From the IMG/VR virus record IMGVR_UViG_2690316278_000006: DNA of 7,132 bases; one strand, 5' to 3'. Shown here piece by piece: positions 1 through 6,750 of this stretch; positions within the stretch are counted from its first letter, which is position 1; each line of letters starts with the position of its first letter. Below the pieces are notes generated by a model. The model did not search any database, had not been told where the DNA came from, and was given only the letters and a program-made list of their open reading frames with translations. A program made the position numbers and the translations under genes. The DNA comes from a virus (lineage: Duplodnaviria; Heunggongvirae; Uroviricota; Caudoviricetes).

Positions 1-189
1 CTGGACGAAACGTTCTCGGTATCCGGGACGGAATCATCAGCGACCAGACAGCATTGAGAATGCTTCAGGAGTACATCAGGATCCAATGCCTTGGGGGGTA
101 GCGGTAATTTTACTCATTATCCTTCAAATCAGATTCTGTTGTCAGAGGAATGGGGGAAGCTGGATTCGCAAGAGCTTTTTATGGGCAGT

Positions 190-699
190 TTAGCTAAAAA
201 AAGGCAACACGAAGCTAAAACTACCAACATAAAGTGCTGACCAGCTAGCAGCTGAAATCAGACTCACTGTATACACTTTCACTGGATGAAGTTGCAACAT
301 TCCTGCCACCAAAGGAGCAATATAACGCAGCACGGCGATAAAGCGCGAAGTGAAAAGTATTGACACAGAGTTATTTTGCAACTGAAGGCGAACCCGTTCT
401 ATTGTATTGGAACGGCTTGATATTATACATGCAAGTTGAGGGATATGCCCAATTATTATACCAAGATGGTAATTAACGATAGTACCGCACCATGCGCCAC
501 TCATGACCGTGATTCCAGCTTCCCATGGTGAAAGAGTCGTCTTGCTGACTGTAATTACAGTGGCCATCATAATTGATGCTGGTGGCAATATCGCCGAAAT
601 GAGTAAAGTGGATTTTGTGAACGCTATTATAAAAAGAAGCCCCCATAGGCGATATGGATGAAGTACAAAATAGTTCATCAAAGCATTTATCCACTCCAT
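190..699 (-). CDS. small inner-membrane protein, DedA/YqaA-like (putative prophage moron)
   Basis: Minus-strand ORF 190..702 (170 aa) in the track. Its first codon is TTG (702-700); the next codon is ATG (699-697), preceded on the minus strand by AAGGA about 9 nt upstream, so ATG is the likelier start. Stop is TAA (192-190). The protein is strongly hydrophobic and the stretch 'FTKSTLLISAILPPASIMMATVI...W...G...G..VNYHLG' resembles the DedA/YqaA core motif as I remember it. The gene is visibly AT-richer than the phage genes to its right (by eye, not computed). Confidence 0.6.
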   Translation of the reverse strand: MEWINALMNYFVLHPYRLWGLLFIIAFTKSTLLISAILPPASIMMATVITVSKTTLSPWEAGITVMSGAWCGTIVNYHLGIIIGHIPQLACIISSRSNTIERVRLQLQNNSVSILFTSRFIAVLRYIAPLVAGMLQLHPVKVYTVSLISAASWSALYVGSFSFVLPFFS

Positions 700-786
700 C
701 AATGTCTTTCCTTCTGTGAATTTTTCTTTGCTATTTAACCGTGATACGACTTAATTTAGGCTTAAACACCTTACATTTACAAGGTA

Positions 787-823
787 CTCCTGTGGGGGGC
801 CCTGCCACGGAGCGTCGCAGGAG
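787..823. promoter_or_regulatory. GC-rich imperfect palindrome in the divergent intergenic region upstream of the small terminase gene
   Basis: CTCCTG (787-792) and CAGGAG (818-823) are reverse complements flanking a GC-rich core (GGGGGGCCC, CCACGG) that can form alternative stems. There is no following T-run, so it is not a canonical intrinsic terminator; it could be an operator or RNA structure. Function unknown. Confidence 0.2.
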
Positions 824-896
824 TGAGTGATGAGGAAGAATTAAAGCAACCTATTGTGACAGGCAGCGATAACAGTAAATCACAGGAAGCATAATC

Positions 897-1370
897 ATGG
901 CAAAACCGGACTGGGAGGCCATCGAATCGGCATACCGGGCCGGAGTCCTTAGCCTCCGTGATATAGGCGAGAAATACGGCGTTACAGAAGGGGCTATCAG
1001 GAAGAGGGCCAAAAAGCTTGGTTGGGCACGCAGTGGCGGTACGCAGGTTTGCAAAAATGGTACGCAAAAAAGGAAAGTGCGTACCAGCAGAAAGCCTGCC
1101 ATTACTGGCCTTACACAAAAAAGTACGCAACTAAAAACAGAATCTACACCGGATACGAAACCGATACGCGGAATGCGTACCGATCCCCCGACTAACCCAT
1201 TCCAACCCGGTAACCAGCAGGCATTAAAACACGGTGGTTATGCCCGTCGCCTTCTGCTCAAAGATGAGGTGATAGAGGACGCTAAAGCGTTGACGCTCGA
1301 GGACGAATTATTTCGCCTTCGTGCTAACAACCTTGTCGCTGCAGAGAATATTGGTCGGTGGTTGGTGTCG
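897..1370 (+). CDS. phage terminase small subunit (3' end lost in N-run)
   Basis: ATG 897 has AGGAAG about 7 nt upstream. The N-terminus carries an HTH-like segment 'LSLRDIGEKYGVTEGAIRKRAKKLGW' followed by a basic region, typical of small terminase DNA-binding domains, and the gene sits immediately 5' of the large terminase. The track's 749-aa ORF 897..3146 is this gene fused to the next one through N codons; the true stop lies inside the gap 1371-1855. Confidence 0.7.
1038..1181. repeat. cluster of GTACGCA/TGCGTAC heptamers inside the small terminase gene, including a perfect 9-bp inverted repeat; candidate pac / terminase recognition site
   Basis: Exact heptamer copies: GTACGCA at 1039-1045, 1060-1066 and 1123-1129; inverted TGCGTAC at 1078-1084 and 1174-1180. 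TGGTACGCA (1058-1066) and TGCGTACCA (1078-1086) form a perfect 9-bp inverted repeat with an 11-nt A-rich spacer. Near-copies lie at 1025-1033 (GGCACGCAG) and 1163-1170 (GATACGCG). Only one other exact copy occurs in the rest of the window (3873-3879). Confidence 0.4.
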
Positions 1371-1856
1371 NNNNNNNNNNNNNNNNNNNNNNNNNNNNNN
1401 NNNNNNNNNNNNNNNNNNNNNNNNNNNNNNNNNNNNNNNNNNNNNNNNNNNNNNNNNNNNNNNNNNNNNNNNNNNNNNNNNNNNNNNNNNNNNNNNNNNN
1501 NNNNNNNNNNNNNNNNNNNNNNNNNNNNNNNNNNNNNNNNNNNNNNNNNNNNNNNNNNNNNNNNNNNNNNNNNNNNNNNNNNNNNNNNNNNNNNNNNNNN
1601 NNNNNNNNNNNNNNNNNNNNNNNNNNNNNNNNNNNNNNNNNNNNNNNNNNNNNNNNNNNNNNNNNNNNNNNNNNNNNNNNNNNNNNNNNNNNNNNNNNNN
1701 NNNNNNNNNNNNNNNNNNNNNNNNNNNNNNNNNNNNNNNNNNNNNNNNNNNNNNNNNNNNNNNNNNNNNNNNNNNNNNNNNNNNNNNNNNNNNNNNNNNN
1801 NNNNNNNNNNNNNNNNNNNNNNNNNNNNNNNNNNNNNNNNNNNNNNNNNNNNNNNG

Positions 1857-3146
1857 GATGCCGCTGGCATTGCCATATTTCTGTCGAATAAATACACCCT
1901 GCGTTTTTGTTGTGCCCGTCAGATCCAGAATAAAATCGAAGAGTCGGTGTATACCCTGCTCAAAATTCAGATAGACAGGTTTGGTCTGCGGCACCGTTTC
2001 CGTATTCTGAACAACAAAATCATTAACCGGGTTACTGGCTCGGAATTTGTTTTTTATGGATTATGGCGCAACATCGAAGAAATTAAGTCACTGGAGGGGA
2101 TCGATGTGTTGTGGCTGGAAGAAGCCCACGCACTGACGGAATACCAGTGGAAAATTCTGGAGCCAACGATCCGTAAAGAGGGTTCGGAATGCTGGTTCAT
2201 ATTCAACCCCGGACTTGTTACTGATTTCGTCTGGCGCAACTTCGTTGTTGATCCGCCCGAAGGCACTCTCATCCGCAAAATTAACTATGACGAAAATCCG
2301 TTTCTGTCTGACACCATGCTTAAGGTTATCGACGCGGCGCGACGCCGTGATCCGGATGGTTTTAAACATGTGTATGAGGGCGTTCCGGAGTCTGATGATG
2401 ATGCGGCAATCATCAAACTGTCTTGGATAGAAGCCGCAGTGGATGCGCACAAAACGTTAAATTTCGAACCCAGTGGAAGAAAGCGTATTGGCTTTGACGT
2501 GGCTGACAGTGGTACAGATAAGTGCGCTAACGTTTACCGTCACGGATCCGTTGTTTTCTGGGCCGACGAATGGAAGGCCAAAGAAGATGAATTACTGAAG
2601 AGCTGCCAGCGTACTTATCAGGCGGCGCTGGAGCGTGAAGCAGATATTGTTTACGACTCTATCGGTGTTGGTGCGTCTGCCGGTGCTAAATTCTCTGAAA
2701 TTAACGCTGACCGGAAGAGCGAGAACGCATACGCGCGACGTGTGAATTACCAGAGGTTTAACGCCGGTGCTGGTGTGCATGAGCCAGATGACGAGTACAA
2801 CGGCATCCCCAACAAAGACTTTTTCGCAAATCTTAAGGCTCAGGCATGGTGGCTGGTGGCTGACCGTTTCAGAAATACGTTTAACGCCATTAACAACGGA
2901 GAACAGTATCCTGTGGATGAGCTGATCAGCATAGATTCTCGTTGTCCGTTGCTTGAAAAGCTGAAACTGGAACTGACAACACCTCATCGTGATTTCGACC
3001 GTAACGGACGTGTGATGGTCGAAAGTAAAAAAGACCTCGCAAAACGCGAGATACCGTCACCAAACGTTGCTGATGCATTCATTATGGCCTTCGCGCCAAT
3101 CGATACATCGCTGGATATCTGGGAACAGCTGGGGAGACAGGCCTGA
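1857..3146 (+). CDS. phage terminase large subunit, PBSX-like family (5' end including Walker A lost in N-run)
   Basis: Open frame of about 430 codons from the gap edge to TGA 3144-3146. It contains a Walker-B-like 'IDVLWLEEAH' and a downstream acidic nuclease-domain-like segment 'IGFDVADSGTDK'. The stop overlaps the next start (ATGA at 3144-3148). The N-terminal ATPase part with the expected Walker A is presumably inside the gap. Confidence 0.85.
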   Translation, partial: DAAGIAIFLSNKYTLRFCCARQIQNKIEESVYTLLKIQIDRFGLRHRFRILNNKIINRVTGSEFVFYGLWRNIEEIKSLEGIDVLWLEEAHALTEYQWKILEPTIRKEGSECWFIFNPGLVTDFVWRNFVVDPPEGTLIRKINYDENPFLSDTMLKVIDAARRRDPDGFKHVYEGVPESDDDAAIIKLSWIEAAVDAHKTLNFEPSGRKRIGFDVADSGTDKCANVYRHGSVVFWADEWKAKEDELLKSCQRTYQAALEREADIVYDSIGVGASAGAKFSEINADRKSENAYARRVNYQRFNAGAGVHEPDDEYNGIPNKDFFANLKAQAWWLVADRFRNTFNAINNGEQYPVDELISIDSRCPLLEKLKLELTTPHRDFDRNGRVMVESKKDLAKREIPSPNVADAFIMAFAPIDTSLDIWEQLGRQA

Positions 3147-4612
3147 TGGCACGAAACAAACAAGCCCTGCGGCGAACTGTGCAGGCCACAGCTGATGGTT
3201 ATGAGAATTTTATTGCCCGCGTAGGGATGCAGACACCTAACCAGCACTCAGCATCCACCTACCGGGCTAATTTCACCAGTCGTAACCGCATGCTGGTGGA
3301 ATGGTCCTATCGTTCATCCTAGATCATCGGCGAAGCAGTCGATGCTATCCCGGATGATATGACCCGCAAAGGCATTCGCATCACTTCGGAAATTGATGCA
3401 AAAGATCGTGGCATTCTCGAATCACAACTGGATGAGTTGCAAATCTGGGATGCGCTGAATGACGTGCTGAAATGGTCGCGCCTCTACGGCGGCGCGGTGG
3501 GTTTCATCATGATTGAGGGGTAGGCACCAATGACCCCGCTGCGACCCGAAACCATCGGTAAGGGCAAGTTTAAGGGGATTCTCCCGCTCGACCGCTGGAT
3601 GGTCGACCCGGCACTGACCCGCCGCATTAAAGATATGGGGCCGGACCTGGGTAAACCTGAGTTTTACGATGTGGTGACCACAGCAACGGGAATTCCTGCC
3701 TGGCGCATTCATCACAGTCGCCTGATTCGCTTTGATGGCGTCACGTTGCCATTTCAGCAGAAGATGACCGAGAACGAATGGGGAATGTCGGTTGTAGAGC
3801 GTATCTGGGATCGTCTTACCGCGTTCGACAGCGCTACTGTCGGCGCGGCGCAGCTGGTCTACAAGGCGCATTTGCGTACCTACAGCGTGGAGAAGCTACG
3901 CGAGCTTATCGCACTTGGTGGTCCTGCGTATGAAGCGTTGCTGAAGAATATCGACCTGATTCGACAGTTCCAGAGTAATGAAGGCATGACGCTCATGGAC
4001 TCGCGGGATAAGTTTGAAACCCATCAGTACAGCTTCAGTGGTCTGGATGACATCCTTTCGCAGTTTGTAGAACAGATTAGTGGCGCTGTTGGTATCCCAC
4101 TGGTGCGGTTGTTCGGACAGTCCCCGAAAGGATTTTCTACCGGTGATGCAGACCTTGCCAACTATTACGATCGCATCAGTTCGTTGCAGGAGAGGCGTTT
4201 ACGTCTTCCGGTGCGGCGGATACTGGACATCATGCATCGTTCGGAACTTGGCAAGCCGCTGCCGGACGATTTCACGTTTGAGTTTAACCCGCTCTGGCAA
4301 ATGTCTGATGTCGATCGCTCAACGGTGGCGTTAAACACCACCAACGCAATCAGTACGGCGCTGGGTGATGGTCTGATGACACTGAAAGCCGCTATGACTG
4401 ATTTGCGAGAAAATTCTGACGTAACCGGCATCGGGGCATCCATTACCGACGAGGACATCGAGAATGCCGAAGATGAAGCGCCGCCCGGCATCGGCGAACC
4501 TGATGACGAACCGCAGGAGCCGTCAGGCGGAAATCCGGTATCGAACCAGCCTACGCAGGATAGCGAGGGCGGTCGGAGACATCGTAAATGGTCGCTACGA
4601 TGGTTCAAATGA
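3146..4612 (+). pseudogene. phage portal protein reading frame (489 codons) interrupted by two in-frame TAG codons
   Basis: One frame runs from ATG 3146 (GGGGAG about 9 nt upstream, start overlapping the terminase stop) to TGA 4610-4612, with no frameshift. It is broken only by TAG at 3320-3322 and TAG at 3521-3523, giving segments of 58, 66 and 360 aa that read as one continuous protein with an acidic C-terminal tail. Size and position directly after the large terminase fit a portal protein. Confidence 0.6.
3530..4612 (+). CDS. portal protein, longest uninterrupted segment (360 aa), possibly expressed as an N-truncated product
   Basis: ORF-track entry 3530..4612. ATG 3530 lies two codons after the second in-frame TAG and has GAGGGG about 9 nt upstream. 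It is in the same frame as 3146..3523, so it is most likely the C-terminal three quarters of the portal rather than an independent gene. Confidence 0.6.
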   Translation: MTPLRPETIGKGKFKGILPLDRWMVDPALTRRIKDMGPDLGKPEFYDVVTTATGIPAWRIHHSRLIRFDGVTLPFQQKMTENEWGMSVVERIWDRLTAFDSATVGAAQLVYKAHLRTYSVEKLRELIALGGPAYEALLKNIDLIRQFQSNEGMTLMDSRDKFETHQYSFSGLDDILSQFVEQISGAVGIPLVRLFGQSPKGFSTGDADLANYYDRISSLQERRLRLPVRRILDIMHRSELGKPLPDDFTFEFNPLWQMSDVDRSTVALNTTNAISTALGDGLMTLKAAMTDLRENSDVTGIGASITDEDIENAEDEAPPGIGEPDDEPQEPSGGNPVSNQPTQDSEGGRRHRKWSLRWFK

Positions 4613-5246
4613 CAGTATCACGGAAATTATTGCGGCGCTGGAGCGTTACAGTGAAATCATCACCCCCTGGGCGACAAAGGTCGCGGAAAACTTTACTGCG
4701 GACCTAACCCGGCAGAACGAGAAAGTTTGGCGGCAACACAGCAAGAACATCAGTCGCGAGCTCCGCAATCTTGTGGAAAGCGCTCCTGTGGGCCAGGTGA
4801 TGCAATCCATCATCGCCGAACAGGTCAAGTACATCAAATCTCTGCCTCTCGAGGCCGCAGACAGGGTGTACGACATCCAGAACAAAGCGATAGAGGCTGT
4901 TGTCACCGGTGGTCGGGCGGAGCAGTTTGCTAAAGAGATTGCATCTACCGGCGATGTTGCTAAGTCTAGGGCCGATCTGATTGCCCGAACGGAACTGGGA
5001 AGAGCAACGGGCGCGCTGGATATGGCCCGAGCGATAGCTATTGGCTCGGATGGTTATATTTGGCGTACAGCCGATGATGGCGATGTCCGAGATTCCCACG
5101 ATCACATGAAAGGTAAATTCGTCCGCTGGGATTCACCTCCAACTTTGGACGGCATGACCGGCCACGCGGGCGAGCTGCCAAACTGCCGCTGCTATAAAGA
5201 GATCGTGTTTGTTCGCGTTCCATTCGCAATGAAAAGGGCAGCATAA
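4464..5246 (+). CDS. phage head morphogenesis / minor capsid protein (Mu F / SPP1 gp7-like)
   Basis: ORF of 260 aa with GAGGA about 8 nt upstream of ATG 4464 and stop TAA 5244-5246. It contains 'WRTADDGDVRDSHDHMKGKFVRWD' (a D..VR..H type motif) and a C-terminal 'NCRCY', which I recognise as characteristic of this family. The 5' end overlaps the portal 3' end by 149 nt; alternative in-frame ATGs at 4473 and 4503 shorten the overlap only slightly. Confidence 0.8.
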   Translation: MPKMKRRPASANLMTNRRSRQAEIRYRTSLRRIARAVGDIVNGRYDGSNDSITEIIAALERYSEIITPWATKVAENFTADLTRQNEKVWRQHSKNISRELRNLVESAPVGQVMQSIIAEQVKYIKSLPLEAADRVYDIQNKAIEAVVTGGRAEQFAKEIASTGDVAKSRADLIARTELGRATGALDMARAIAIGSDGYIWRTADDGDVRDSHDHMKGKFVRWDSPPTLDGMTGHAGELPNCRCYKEIVFVRVPFAMKRAA

Positions 5247-5798: not shown

Positions 5799-6094
5799 NN
5801 NNNNNNNNNNNNNNNNNNNNNNNNNNNNNNNNNNNNNNNNNNNNNNNNNNNNNNNNNNNNNNNNNNNNNNNNNNNNNNNNNNNNNNNNNNNNNNNNNNNN
5901 NNNNNNNNNNNNNNNNNNNNNNNNNNNNNNNNNNNNNNNNNNNNNNNNNNNNNNNNNNNNNNNNNNNNNNNNNNNNNNNNNNNNNNNNNNNNNNNNNNNN
6001 NNNNNNNNNNNNNNNNNNNNNNNNNNNNNNNNNNNNNNNNNNNNNNNNNNNNNNNNNNNNNNNNNNNNNNNNNNNNNNNNNNNNNNNNNNNNNN

Positions 6095-6724: not shown

Positions 6725-6750
6725 NNNNNNNNNNNNNNNNNNNNNNNNNN

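What the first reader, a model, noticed from the sequence alone, without database searches (positions are those of the whole stretch)
190..780. AT-rich, opposite-strand membrane-protein gene just upstream of the terminase genes: a likely moron
The 170-aa ORF on the minus strand is visibly AT-richer than the packaging genes and is transcribed against the late operon. It sits where lambdoid phages commonly carry cargo genes (for example bor in lambda, between the lysis genes and the packaging genes). Its core resembles the DedA/YqaA inner-membrane family, which I have not seen described as a typical phage moron. Small phage-encoded membrane proteins at such positions often act in superinfection exclusion or in altering host envelope properties.
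Basis: partly seen in the sequence, partly recalled or inferred. Interest (0 to 1): 0.5.

Follow-up and report, generated by a model that had tools for sequence, protein, structure and literature searches.

The report
Prophage cargo gene: atypical DedA protein
A prophage of E. coli/Shigella carries, between its lysis and DNA-packaging genes, a borrowed bacterial membrane-protein gene of the DedA family whose chromosomal relatives in Enterobacter are switched on together with the polymyxin-resistance (PhoPQ) response, so it is a real and fairly unusual phage passenger gene but not a new kind of system.

Summary
A 169-aa ORF (window 190-699, minus strand) lies between the end of Rz (101) and the small-terminase start (897). 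It runs against the late operon and has 41.8% GC against 52.3% for the rest. It is a true DedA/VTT-domain protein (Pfam E=9e-14). Related phages carry other small genes in the same slot. The same cassette sits next to three different packaging modules and also in bacterial chromosomes. dN/dS is 0.15-0.24, so it is a functional moron.

It belongs to a small subfamily found in Enterobacter, Citrobacter, Kosakonia, Arsenophonus and Morganella. In this subfamily the conserved Glu of re-entrant loop 1 (YqjA E39) is Lys, and the two essential Arg are kept. Its nearest relatives outside the subfamily are DedA-PAP2 fusion proteins.

In Enterobacter the gene sits beside mgtE behind PhoP-box promoters. 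Published data show it induced 23-fold in an mgrB-deleted, colistin-resistant strain. The window copy has a degraded PhoP box.

The best reading is a lipid-phosphate (undecaprenyl-phosphate-type) translocase that serves envelope remodelling in the lysogen. The substrate and the regulation in E. coli/Shigella are inferred, not shown. I found no evidence for superinfection exclusion.

The parts
190..699 (-). Coding sequence of the 169-aa DedA/VTT-family inner-membrane protein (ATG 699-697, stop TAA 192-190). Hallmarks are K29-S-T ... L-P-P-A41-S42 in re-entrant loop 1 and LFTS-R119-FIAVL-R125-YIAP in re-entrant loop 2.
   Evidence: ORF list. Pfam VTT_dom E=9.3e-14. Alignments A1 and A2. dN/dS 0.15-0.24 and 16 intact near-identical copies.
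709..713 (-). Shine-Dalgarno-like AAGGA, 9 nt before the ATG.
   Evidence: Read from the sequence. An AGGAG or GGAG is at the matching place in the relatives.
733..768 (-). Promoter-like region of the cassette: TGTTTA (768-763), spacer AGCCT, AAATTA (757-752), 13 nt, then the -10-like TTAAAT (738-733). This is a degraded version of the PhoP-box promoter (direct repeat 12 nt upstream of the -10) seen in the relatives.
   Evidence: Upstream comparison. The motif census finds the composite motif in 30 of 69 distinct upstream regions but not in the window copy. PhoP-box architecture is taken from PMC3335776. The simple sigma-70 scan found nothing here.
146..889 (.). The insert relative to related phages. 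This is everything between the end of homology to HK620-type lysis modules (about 130-145) and the start of homology to the terS of GZ7-type phages (890-895). Within it, about 178-775 is the core cassette shared with Citrobacter prophage and chromosomal copies.
   Evidence: homology boundaries. (extent shared with L002/L023, L006/L025, L091, L103 and L104).
3..101 (+). 3' end of the Rz spanin gene, the last gene of the lysis cassette. It converges on the DedA-like gene.
   Evidence: Megablast to the Rz of HK620, mEp460 and others. RefSeq annotates it as 'lysis protein' ending at the position that maps to window 101.
897..1370 (+). 5' part of the small terminase gene, the first gene of the packaging/head operon. 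The rest is masked by a run of N.
   Evidence: 87% identity to the annotated 'terminase small subunit' of Klebsiella phage GZ7. It is followed by a PBSX-family large terminase in L001. It has no Pfam hit of its own.

Best explanation
The feature is a moron, a self-contained cargo gene. It sits in the slot between the lysis genes and the packaging genes of a lambdoid prophage and is read against the late operon, as bor is in lambda.

It encodes a 169-aa polytopic inner-membrane protein of a small, distinct subfamily of the DedA/VTT superfamily. The cassette runs from about 75 nt of promoter region through the ORF to about 12 nt past the stop. It was captured from a chromosomal gene of Citrobacter/Kosakonia/Enterobacter-type bacteria and has since moved between phages with different packaging modules.

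In its chromosomal home (Enterobacter, Lelliottia, Huaxiibacter) the gene is paired with the Mg2+ channel gene mgtE. It is driven by PhoP-box promoters and is strongly induced together with the arn operon, pagP and mgtA when PhoPQ is derepressed.

By inference, the protein moves an anionic lipid head group across the inner membrane. The most likely substrate is undecaprenyl phosphate, released at the periplasmic face by ArnT-type and O-antigen-type transferases. The two conserved arginines of re-entrant loop 2 would act as the phosphate-binding site. With Lys in place of the family's buried Glu, the protein may work without the proton coupling proposed for canonical DedA proteins.

In the lysogen it would add carrier-lipid recycling or envelope-remodelling capacity, that is, resistance to cationic peptides or low-Mg2+ stress.

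Shown: moron status, family membership, subfamily residue pattern, purifying selection, and the PhoP-box/mgtE context of the orthologues.
Taken from the literature: induction of the Enterobacter orthologue.
Inferred: substrate, direction of transport, benefit to the lysogen, and whether the degraded promoter of the window copy still responds to PhoP.
For: Moron status.
- The slot is variable in close relatives.
- No close copy exists in 50,697 phage records, and 6 of 5,426 complete E. coli genomes carry it.
- GC is 0.418 against 0.523 for the rest of the window.
- The same cassette lies between lysis genes and three unrelated terminase modules: the window type, a lambda-like GpA/DUF1441 type in C. 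youngae, and a Terminase_2 type in L091.
- Chromosomal copies exist in Citrobacter, Kosakonia and Enterobacter.

Functional gene.
- dN/dS is 0.15-0.24, including against the other phage-borne copy.
- All 16 near-identical copies are intact, even in IS-ridden Shigella prophages.

Family.
- Pfam VTT_dom is above its cut-off.
- The residues matching YqjA R130, R136 and S52 are invariant (R119, R125, S42). These are functionally required in YqjA and bind C55-P in UptA.
- The nearest outgroup in 1.84 billion representatives is DedA domains fused to PAP2 lipid-phosphate phosphatases, which links this branch to lipid phosphates.

Regulation of the orthologues.
- A composite direct repeat lies exactly 12 nt upstream of a -10-like hexamer in 30 of 69 distinct upstream regions, against 6 hits in 1.39 Mb of background.
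- A perfect (T/G)GTTTA-N5-(T/G)GTTTA box lies further upstream in 23 Enterobacter loci, against 0 in 1.41 Mb of flanks.
- This matches PhoP promoter architectures I and II (PMC3335776).
- mgtE is adjacent in most Enterobacter, Lelliottia and Huaxiibacter loci and in several Arsenophonus loci.
- In E. hormaechei with mgrB deleted, mgtE (N5F16_08425) rises 19.6-fold, the adjacent DedA gene (N5F16_08430) 23.1-fold and the next SDR gene 3.1-fold, alongside arn at 35-56-fold and pagP at 27-fold (PMC10434160 supplements). That gene order is the one seen in L008-L010.
Against: - No experiment exists on this protein or on any member of its subfamily.
- The Glu that is essential in YqjA (E39) is Lys here, and D51 is Ala. 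D51A inactivates YqjA, and E39 is reported as required there. Canonical DedA activity therefore cannot simply be assumed.
- The NCBIfam equivalog models for E. coli-type DedA and for UptA are far below their cut-offs (30.7 against 236; 19.5 against 250).
- The protein lacks the last transmembrane helix of YqjA.
- The AlphaFold model is weak exactly in the two re-entrant loops (pLDDT below 50 at residues 32-40 and 111-123).
- The window copy's PhoP box has a 1-nt insertion and a 3-of-6 second half-site. It fails the composite motif, and no sigma-70 promoter or terminator was detected by the simple scan. Expression in the lysogen is therefore unproven.
- The composite motif was defined after looking at a subset of the same sequences. 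Those sequences are related by descent, which inflates its apparent significance. The perfect-consensus box does not have the post-hoc problem.
- Identifying N5F16_08430 as the orthologue rests on gene order and annotation, not on its sequence.
Confidence: 0.5

Rival explanations
1. The protein acts in divalent-cation (Mg2+) homeostasis rather than in lipid flipping. It would work as a small ion-coupled transporter or as a partner or modulator of Mg2+ transport, and the prophage copy would help the lysogen in low-Mg2+ niches.
For: mgtE is adjacent in two arrangements: divergent in Enterobacter, Lelliottia and Huaxiibacter, and downstream on the same strand in Arsenophonus. The gene is co-induced with mgtE and mgtA. 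Published work links Klebsiella DedA proteins to divalent-cation homeostasis (PMC10846249 title and abstract) and links a DedA protein to indium extrusion (PMC8679861 title).
Against: The phage cassette travels without mgtE. Morganella, the reduced Arsenophonus genomes, Kosakonia and Citrobacter lack the linkage. Co-regulation by PhoP would by itself explain the adjacency. The conserved Arg pair and the PAP2-fusion relatives point to a phosphate-bearing lipid. A site containing Lys and two Arg is a poor cation-binding site.
Confidence: 0.2
2. The protein is a superinfection-exclusion or anti-phage membrane protein that protects the lysogen from other phages.
For: Small membrane proteins in moron slots often have this role (general knowledge). 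The gene is oriented for expression independent of the late operon. Changes in carrier-lipid flux could in principle alter surface-polysaccharide receptors.
Against: There is no match to any PADLOC defence model. The subfamily is a vertically inherited chromosomal gene in whole genera (Enterobacter, Arsenophonus, Morganella), and its GC has adjusted to the host. The orthologue belongs to an envelope-stress regulon, not a defence island.
Confidence: 0.1
3. The gene is a selectively neutral passenger or a decaying remnant. It would be silent in E. coli/Shigella, with a promoter damaged by the 1-nt insertion and possible H-NS silencing of AT-rich DNA, and would persist only because it arrived recently.
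For: The window copy fails the PhoP-box motif. No promoter or terminator was detected. Its GC is the lowest, and its branch the longest, in its clade. It is rare in E. coli.
Against: dN/dS is 0.15-0.24 on comparisons that include the window branch. All hallmark residues are kept. There is not one frameshift or stop in 16 copies from different IS-disrupted prophage contexts, and the variable sites are 3 synonymous and 2 conservative (V48I, A36S). The near-identical copies say little about selection because they are so recent.
Confidence: 0.15
4. The protein is a lysis or packaging accessory, for example a holin or antiholin modulator, that belongs to the phage's own life cycle.
For: Only its position beside Rz and terS.
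Against: It is on the opposite strand. It is absent from close relatives that have the same terS or the same Rz. It has chromosomal orthologues far from any phage. The only PHROG hit is weak and is to a family of unknown function.
Confidence: 0.03

Closest known systems
E. coli YqjA / YghB (canonical DedA family proteins)
   Same: Both carry the VTT/DedA domain, with two predicted re-entrant loops, at the same place in the protein. The residues matching YqjA R130, R136 and S52 are invariant in the subfamily (R119, R125, S42), as are the flanking Pro and Gly.
   Different: Identity is only 19-24%. E39 is Lys and D51 is Ala. The protein lacks the C-terminal transmembrane helix (about 45 aa) and part of the N-terminal segment. 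The NCBIfam equivalog PRK10847 scores 30.7 bits against a cut-off of 236.
UptA (B. subtilis) and PA4029 (P. aeruginosa), DedA-type undecaprenyl-phosphate flippases
   Same: Same superfamily, and the same Arg pair that mediates C55-P binding in UptA (PMC11474028). There is a functional link to polymyxin resistance (PMC12893004 title and abstract), and the orthologue here is co-induced with the arn operon.
   Different: The UptA equivalog models score 19.5 and 16 bits against cut-offs of 250 and 300. UptA E32, which hydrogen-bonds R118, most likely corresponds to the Glu that is Lys here; UptA itself was not aligned. No activity data exist.
DedA-PAP2(-LssY_C) fusion proteins of about 450-730 aa
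   Same: They are the best-scoring relatives outside the subfamily in the exhaustive profile search. Like the subfamily, they lack an Asp at the YqjA D51 position (S/A/T/V) and keep both Arg.
   Different: They keep the Glu at the E39 position and carry lipid-phosphate phosphatase and LssY_C domains. The window protein is a stand-alone domain.
E. hormaechei N5F16_08430, the mgtE-linked 'DedA family protein' induced in colistin- and CSA-13-resistant mutants
   Same: It is the same subfamily by gene order (mgtE-DedA-SDR, as in L008-L010). Those loci encode a 167-aa protein 49% identical to the window protein, with the same KST...PPAS and LFTSRF motifs.
   Different: It is chromosomal, has host-like GC (0.60), and has two intact PhoP boxes. 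The window copy is phage-borne, AT-rich and has a degraded box. The paper labels it 'YabI' and does not study it further.
Lambda bor and comparable morons in the lysis-to-terminase slot
   Same: Same genomic slot (downstream of Rz, upstream of the packaging genes), same antisense orientation to the late operon, deviating composition, and absence from close relatives. The position of bor is from established knowledge of the lambda map.
   Different: The protein is unrelated: Bor is an outer-membrane lipoprotein, and this is a polytopic inner-membrane DedA protein.

Membership tests
DedA / VTT-domain superfamily (Pfam PF09335) | Match to the VTT_dom profile above Pfam's gathering score | tested here: met
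   52.4 bits against a cut-off of 33.9, E=9.3e-14, covering profile positions 3-121 of 123. All 19 homologues carry PF09335.
DedA / VTT-domain superfamily (Pfam PF09335) | Two conserved arginines in re-entrant loop 2 (YqjA R130 and R136; UptA R112 and R118) | tested here: met
   R119 and R125 are invariant in the subfamily and aligned with YqjA, YghB and DedA. The pair is R/R in 128 of 138 representatives.
DedA / VTT-domain superfamily (Pfam PF09335) | Membrane-embedded Glu in re-entrant loop 1 (YqjA E39; probably UptA E32) | tested here: not met
   The position is Lys (K29) in the window protein and in the whole subfamily. It is Glu in essentially all other representatives examined.
DedA / VTT-domain superfamily (Pfam PF09335) | Asp in the P-G-D-S motif (YqjA D51) | tested here: not met
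   The position is Ala (A41, motif P-P-A-S). The nearest outgroup, the DedA-PAP2 fusions, also lacks Asp here, so this feature defines only the YqjA/YghB/DedA branch.
DedA / VTT-domain superfamily (Pfam PF09335) | Fold with two re-entrant helical hairpins facing each other | tested here: inconclusive
   The AlphaFold2 model has mean pLDDT 66.6, falling below 50 in both predicted loops. No solved DedA structure is available for comparison: the PDB sequence search gave 0 hits, the best Foldseek E-value was 1.8, and the AFDB library was unavailable.
E. coli-type DedA and UptA equivalogs (NCBIfam NF008102, NF052604, NF052605) | Score above the curated equivalog cut-off | tested here: not met
   30.7 against 236, 19.5 against 250, and 16 against 300 bits. 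The protein is not an orthologue of these characterised proteins.
Phage moron (cargo gene) | Present in some phages and absent from closely related ones at the same position, between functional modules | tested here: met
   L015 (terS 98% identical) and phage GZ7 have other small ORFs in the slot. The homology breakpoints lie at about 145 and about 890. Six of 5,426 E. coli genomes carry it.
Phage moron (cargo gene) | Nucleotide composition different from the surrounding phage genes | tested here: met
   GC 0.418 and GC3 0.382, against 0.523 and 0.50-0.61.
Phage moron (cargo gene) | Own promoter and terminator, allowing expression from the repressed prophage | tested here: inconclusive
   A conserved promoter-like element travels with the cassette but is degraded in the window copy. 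The scan found no sigma-70 promoter or intrinsic terminator. Expression cannot be tested with these tools.
PhoP regulon (architecture I/II promoters) | PhoP box (T/G)GTTTA-N5-(T/G)GTTTA in direct orientation about 12 nt upstream of the -10 hexamer | tested here: not met
   This result is for the window copy only: the first half-site is perfect, the second matches 3 of 6, and the distance is 13 nt. For the orthologues the feature is met: a proximal variant box at exactly 12 nt in 30 distinct loci, plus a perfect upstream box in 23 Enterobacter loci (definition from PMC3335776).
PhoP regulon (architecture I/II promoters) | PhoP-dependent transcription | not testable with these tools
   There is only indirect literature evidence, and only for the Enterobacter orthologue: 23-fold induction in an mgrB-deleted mutant. 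Nothing is known for the prophage copy.

The most novel reading that the evidence does not exclude
The KST/PPAS short DedA proteins would be a so-far unrecognised, PhoPQ-controlled class of carrier-lipid (undecaprenyl-phosphate or Und-P-sugar) translocase. With a Lys replacing the family's buried Glu, they would work without proton coupling. They would be needed for full L-Ara4N lipid A modification and for polymyxin or cationic-peptide resistance. Temperate phages would have picked this gene up and be spreading it into Shigella flexneri and E. coli, making it a lysogenic-conversion factor for envelope resistance.
Probability: 0.15. Interest if true: 0.65.

Novelty: new variant of a known kind. 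Interest (0 to 1): 0.42.

Why it matters
DedA proteins have only recently been recognised as undecaprenyl-phosphate and phospholipid translocases and as determinants of polymyxin resistance. How they work, and what the buried Glu/Asp/Arg residues do, is still open.

A natural, conserved subfamily with the Glu replaced by Lys but the Arg pair intact is a ready-made test of the proton-coupling idea.

The subfamily is strongly co-induced with the arn operon in Enterobacter, a genus known for colistin heteroresistance, and nobody appears to have studied it.

A phage-borne copy shows that such envelope-remodelling accessories can move horizontally into Shigella and E. coli through the classic moron slot. 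I found no description of a DedA moron in the searched literature.

If the gene turns out to be silent or phenotypically neutral, the finding reduces to one more annotated cargo gene.

Tried and rejected
- Structure route. The AlphaFold2 model from a 15-sequence alignment was mediocre (pLDDT 66.6). Foldseek against the PDB gave only noise (best E=1.8). A profile search of PDB sequences gave 0 hits. The AFDB library was not available. No structural inference was drawn.
- Defence role. PADLOC gave no hit.
- RNA elements. Rfam on 1-1370 gave only a chance snoRNA match (E=0.66).
- Folding of the two intergenic stretches. Nothing convincing came out. A GC-rich hairpin lies at about 785-825, with z=-0.4 on the plus strand and z=-2.9 on the minus strand.
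- Repeats. Only short pairs that are probably chance were found.
- Simple promoter/terminator scan. Nothing was found in 700-896 on the minus strand or downstream of the stop.
- PHROGs. One weak hit to a family of unknown function.
- Literature on a phage or prophage DedA. 'DedA' + 'prophage' returned a place name (Dedacun) and incidental genome reports. 'DedA family' + 'moron' returned the author name Morona. A further search gave nothing relevant.
- YqaA-type membership. Rejected, because YqaA lacks both arginines.
- Lysis or packaging accessory, and pseudogene. Considered and rejected for the reasons given under the rival explanations.
Full report
**1. The observation**

The window has an ORF at 190..702 on the minus strand, 170 aa from a TTG. 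The ATG one codon further in (699-697) is conserved in every relative, while the TTG is not. The product is therefore 169 aa.

Window 1-130 is the 3' end of an HK620/mEp460-type Rz gene, with its stop at 99-101. Window 890-1364 is 87% identical to the annotated small-terminase gene of Klebsiella phage GZ7. The ORF thus lies between the last lysis gene and the first packaging gene and converges on Rz.

Its GC is 0.418 (GC3 0.382). The rest of the window is 0.523, and late-gene GC3 is 0.50-0.61.

**2. It is a moron**

- The 745 bases between the two homology breakpoints (about 146-889) have no near match in 50,697 phage records.
- tblastn finds only DedA genes of 30% identity or less in that collection.
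- Only 6 of 5,426 complete E. coli genomes carry the stretch, all at 99% identity or more, where RefSeq calls the product 'DedA family protein'.
- In E. coli FDAARGOS_944 the gene sits in a complete-looking lambdoid prophage next to ybhA/modC. That prophage has Rac-like early genes, four tRNA genes, holin-lysozyme-Rz, then the gene, then terS, a PBSX-type terL and a contractile-tail module.
- A prophage whose terS is 98% identical has a 61-aa forward ORF in the slot, and phage GZ7 has a 142-aa forward ORF. The slot is variable.
- A 78%-identical copy occupies the same slot, in the same antisense orientation, in a Citrobacter youngae prophage with an unrelated lambda-like GpA/DUF1441 terminase and a Phage_portal_2 head module.
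- A 99% copy lies between Rz and a Terminase_2-type terS in the IMG/VR contig L091.
- The DNA shared by the E. coli, Citrobacter-prophage and Citrobacter-chromosome copies runs from about 75 nt upstream of the ATG to about 12 nt past the stop. This is a promoter-plus-gene cassette.

**3. It is a live gene**

Pairwise dN/dS between the window gene and seven relatives is 0.15-0.24. Against the other phage-borne copy it is 0.236.

Sixteen near-identical copies from Shigella, E. coli and IMG/VR are all intact. Their five variable sites are three synonymous changes plus V48I and A36S. In several of these loci IS3-family transposases abut the cassette.

**4. What the protein is**

Pfam VTT_dom (the DedA domain) scores 52.4 bits against a cut-off of 33.9. 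The NCBIfam equivalogs for E. coli-type DedA and for the undecaprenyl-phosphate transporter UptA are far below their cut-offs. It is a family member but not an orthologue of any characterised protein.

The word-indexed search of 5.8 billion proteins found only 19 relatives. The exhaustive profile search of 1.84 billion representatives found only 12 with E below 1e-30. A scan of one genome per species found 70 loci:

- Shigella and E. coli (prophage copies)
- Citrobacter
- Kosakonia
- essentially every Enterobacter species
- Lelliottia
- Huaxiibacter
- Entomohabitans teleogrylli
- Arsenophonus
- Morganella
- Proteus myxofaciens

In Enterobacter (GC 0.60), Arsenophonus (0.33) and Morganella (0.57) the gene's GC follows the host. 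It is an old chromosomal resident there. The Citrobacter/Kosakonia/E. coli clade (0.42-0.51) is the mobile one.

**5. The residue pattern**

I aligned the subfamily with genuine K-12 YqjA, YghB, DedA and YqaA, fetched from NC_000913.3.

- The equivalents of YqjA R130 and R136 (R119, R125) and of S52 (S42) are invariant.
- The equivalent of E39 is Lys (K29).
- The equivalent of D51 is Ala (A41).
- The motifs KST...LPPAS and LFTSRF(I/L)AVLR are invariant from Shigella to Arsenophonus.

In YqjA, D51A, R136A and S52C abolish function, and the E39A/D51A and R130A/R136A double mutants are described as non-functional (bioRxiv 10.64898/2026.09.20.752871). In UptA, R112, R118 and E32 contribute to C55-P binding (PMC11474028).

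Across 138 representatives the E39 position is Glu everywhere except in this subfamily. The D51 position is S/A/T/V in the nearest outgroup too. The Arg pair is present in 128. The hallmark of the subfamily is therefore the Glu-to-Lys charge reversal, together with the loss of the last transmembrane helix.

The nearest outgroup is DedA domains fused to PAP2 lipid-phosphate phosphatases, often with an LssY_C domain as well. This ties the branch to phosphate-bearing lipids.

The protein is very hydrophobic, with 9 Lys+Arg and 3 Asp+Glu.

The AlphaFold2 model is poor in both re-entrant loops, and there is no solved DedA structure to compare with.

**6. Regulation and context of the orthologues**

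mgtE is the immediate neighbour in most Enterobacter, Lelliottia and Huaxiibacter loci, where it is divergent. It is also the neighbour in several Arsenophonus loci, where it is downstream on the same strand.

Upstream regions from Citrobacter, Enterobacter, Lelliottia and Huaxiibacter share a direct repeat, (T/G/C)GTT(G/T)A-N5-(G/T/C)ATT(T/G)A. It lies exactly 12 nt before a -10-like T(T/C)(T/A)AAT. This is found in 30 of 69 distinct upstream regions, always 62-78 nt before the ATG, against 6 matches in 1.39 Mb of flanking sequence.

In 23 Enterobacter loci a perfect literature-consensus PhoP box, (T/G)GTTTA-N5-(T/G)GTTTA, lies about 37 nt further upstream in the same orientation. None occurs in 1.41 Mb of flanks. 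Its spacer varies while its half-sites do not.

This is the architecture I/II layout of PhoP-activated promoters, defined as a box in direct orientation 12 nt upstream of the -10 with an optional second box upstream (Zwir et al. 2012, PMC3335776).

Caveat: I defined the proximal motif after seeing part of the data, and the sequences are related by descent. The perfect box is free of the first objection.

Independent experimental support comes from E. hormaechei ST89. A colistin-selected mutant with mgrB deleted over-expresses the following (PMC10434160 and its supplements):

| Gene | Fold change |
|---|---|
| N5F16_08425 (MgtE) | 19.6 |
| N5F16_08430 ('DedA family protein', SNARE_assoc) | 23.1 |
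| N5F16_08435 (SDR) | 3.1 |
| arn operon | 35-56 |
| pagP | 27 |
| mgtA | 6.75 |
| slyB | 4.63 |
| virK/ybjX | 45.4 and 13.7 (two genes) |

The gene order mgtE-DedA-SDR is the one I see around the subfamily member in Enterobacter cloacae-complex genomes. The identification is by synteny, not by sequence.

**7. The window copy's promoter**

The cassette's upstream element is present but altered: TGTTTA (768-763), AGCCT, AAATTA (757-752), 13 nt, TTAAAT (738-733).

Compared with the C. youngae prophage copy (TGTTTA-GGCTC-GATTGA-12 nt-TTAAAT), it has a 1-nt insertion and G-to-A changes in the second half-site. It fails the composite motif.

Whether it is still PhoP-responsive, constitutive or silent cannot be decided here.

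**8. Best explanation and rivals**

The best-supported reading is a lysogenic-conversion cargo gene encoding an atypical DedA-type translocase for an anionic lipid head group. The most plausible substrate is undecaprenyl phosphate. The gene would be borrowed from the PhoPQ envelope-remodelling programme of Enterobacter-like bacteria.

Moron status, family membership and purifying selection are shown. PhoP control of the orthologues is well supported. The substrate, the effect of the Glu-to-Lys change and the benefit to the lysogen are inferences.

| Rival | Confidence | Main point |
|---|---|---|
| Mg2+ or divalent-cation role | 0.2 | supported by the mgtE linkage; weakened because the phage cassette lacks mgtE and the site is cationic |
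| Neutral or silent passenger | 0.15 | supported by the degraded box; weakened by dN/dS and intactness |
| Superinfection exclusion | 0.1 | no supporting evidence; no PADLOC hit |
| Lysis or packaging accessory | 0.03 | essentially excluded |

**9. Novelty**

The gene is annotated generically in RefSeq, so its existence is not new. I found no paper describing a phage-borne DedA gene, the KST/PPAS subfamily, its Glu-to-Lys signature or its PhoP-box promoters. The one paper that measured the Enterobacter orthologue labels it 'YabI' and moves on.

I rate it a new variant of a known kind, that is, a DedA-family protein carried as a classic moron, of moderate interest.

Noticed in passing
L029-L055 (Enterobacter species), about 99-122 nt upstream of the DedA-like gene; for example L033 at about 4896-4912: A perfect PhoP consensus box (TGTTTA-N5-GGTTTA) lies in the mgtE/DedA divergent intergenic region of 23 Enterobacter species genomes. 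Its half-sites are invariant and its spacer varies. This suggests that both mgtE and the DedA-like gene belong to the PhoP regulon in this genus.
   Followed up: yes
L104 4125-4802 (+), 5672-6349 (-) and 9826-10503 (+); L103 3542-4699 (-): In IMG/VR contigs with Shigella-like 99% copies, IS3-family transposase genes (rve domain) abut the DedA cassette. In L104 two inverted copies of the same IS bracket it like a composite transposon, yet the DedA gene stays intact.
   Followed up: partly
window 1371-1855, 5799-6094, 6725-6750: Three runs of N (807 bases in all) mask parts of terS/terL, the DUF2213-like gene and a downstream gene. ORFs listed across them (for example 897..3146) are artefacts of the masking. 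The window is about 131 nt longer than L001 between terS and the end of terL.
   Followed up: no
L001 17802-18112: The E. coli prophage carries four tRNA genes (Ile, Arg, Thr, Gly) between the DUF1133 gene (Q-like antiterminator region) and the holin. Klebsiella phage GZ7 has tRNA-Asn and tRNA-Arg at the same place (L016 1083-1239).
   Followed up: no
L001 14548-15213 and 15441-15596: The same prophage has other likely cargo genes: an epoxyqueuosine reductase QueH gene and a hokD type I toxin gene in the region upstream of the late genes.
   Followed up: no
L002 16523-19399: The Citrobacter youngae prophage that carries the 78% copy also has, a few kb away next to a DinI gene, an FMN reductase gene and an arsenic-resistance cluster (ArsR-type HTH, ArsB, ArsC). 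It is unclear whether these lie inside or just outside the prophage.
   Followed up: no
window 785-825: A GC-rich imperfect hairpin (CUCCUGUGGG...CGCAGGAG) lies in the part of the insert that is specific to the E. coli/Shigella copies, between the DedA promoter region and terS. It is not followed by a T run. The fold z-score is -0.4 on the plus strand and -2.9 on the minus strand.
   Followed up: partly
window 154-167 and 511-524: A 14-nt inverted repeat (93% complementary) pairs the stretch just downstream of the DedA stop codon with a stretch inside the ORF. It may well be chance.
   Followed up: no
window 897-1370: The small terminase of this phage type has no Pfam match at E<=0.001, although it is annotated as terS in phage GZ7 and sits directly before a PBSX-type large terminase.
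   Followed up: partly
L026, L028, L024 (Kosakonia and a soil MAG), 5001 minus 130 to 5000: The Kosakonia-type copies (72-73% identical protein) have a completely different upstream region, with a TTGGTG...TATAAA sigma-70-like promoter and no PhoP-box-like repeat. The regulatory input has therefore been swapped within the mobile clade.
   Followed up: partly
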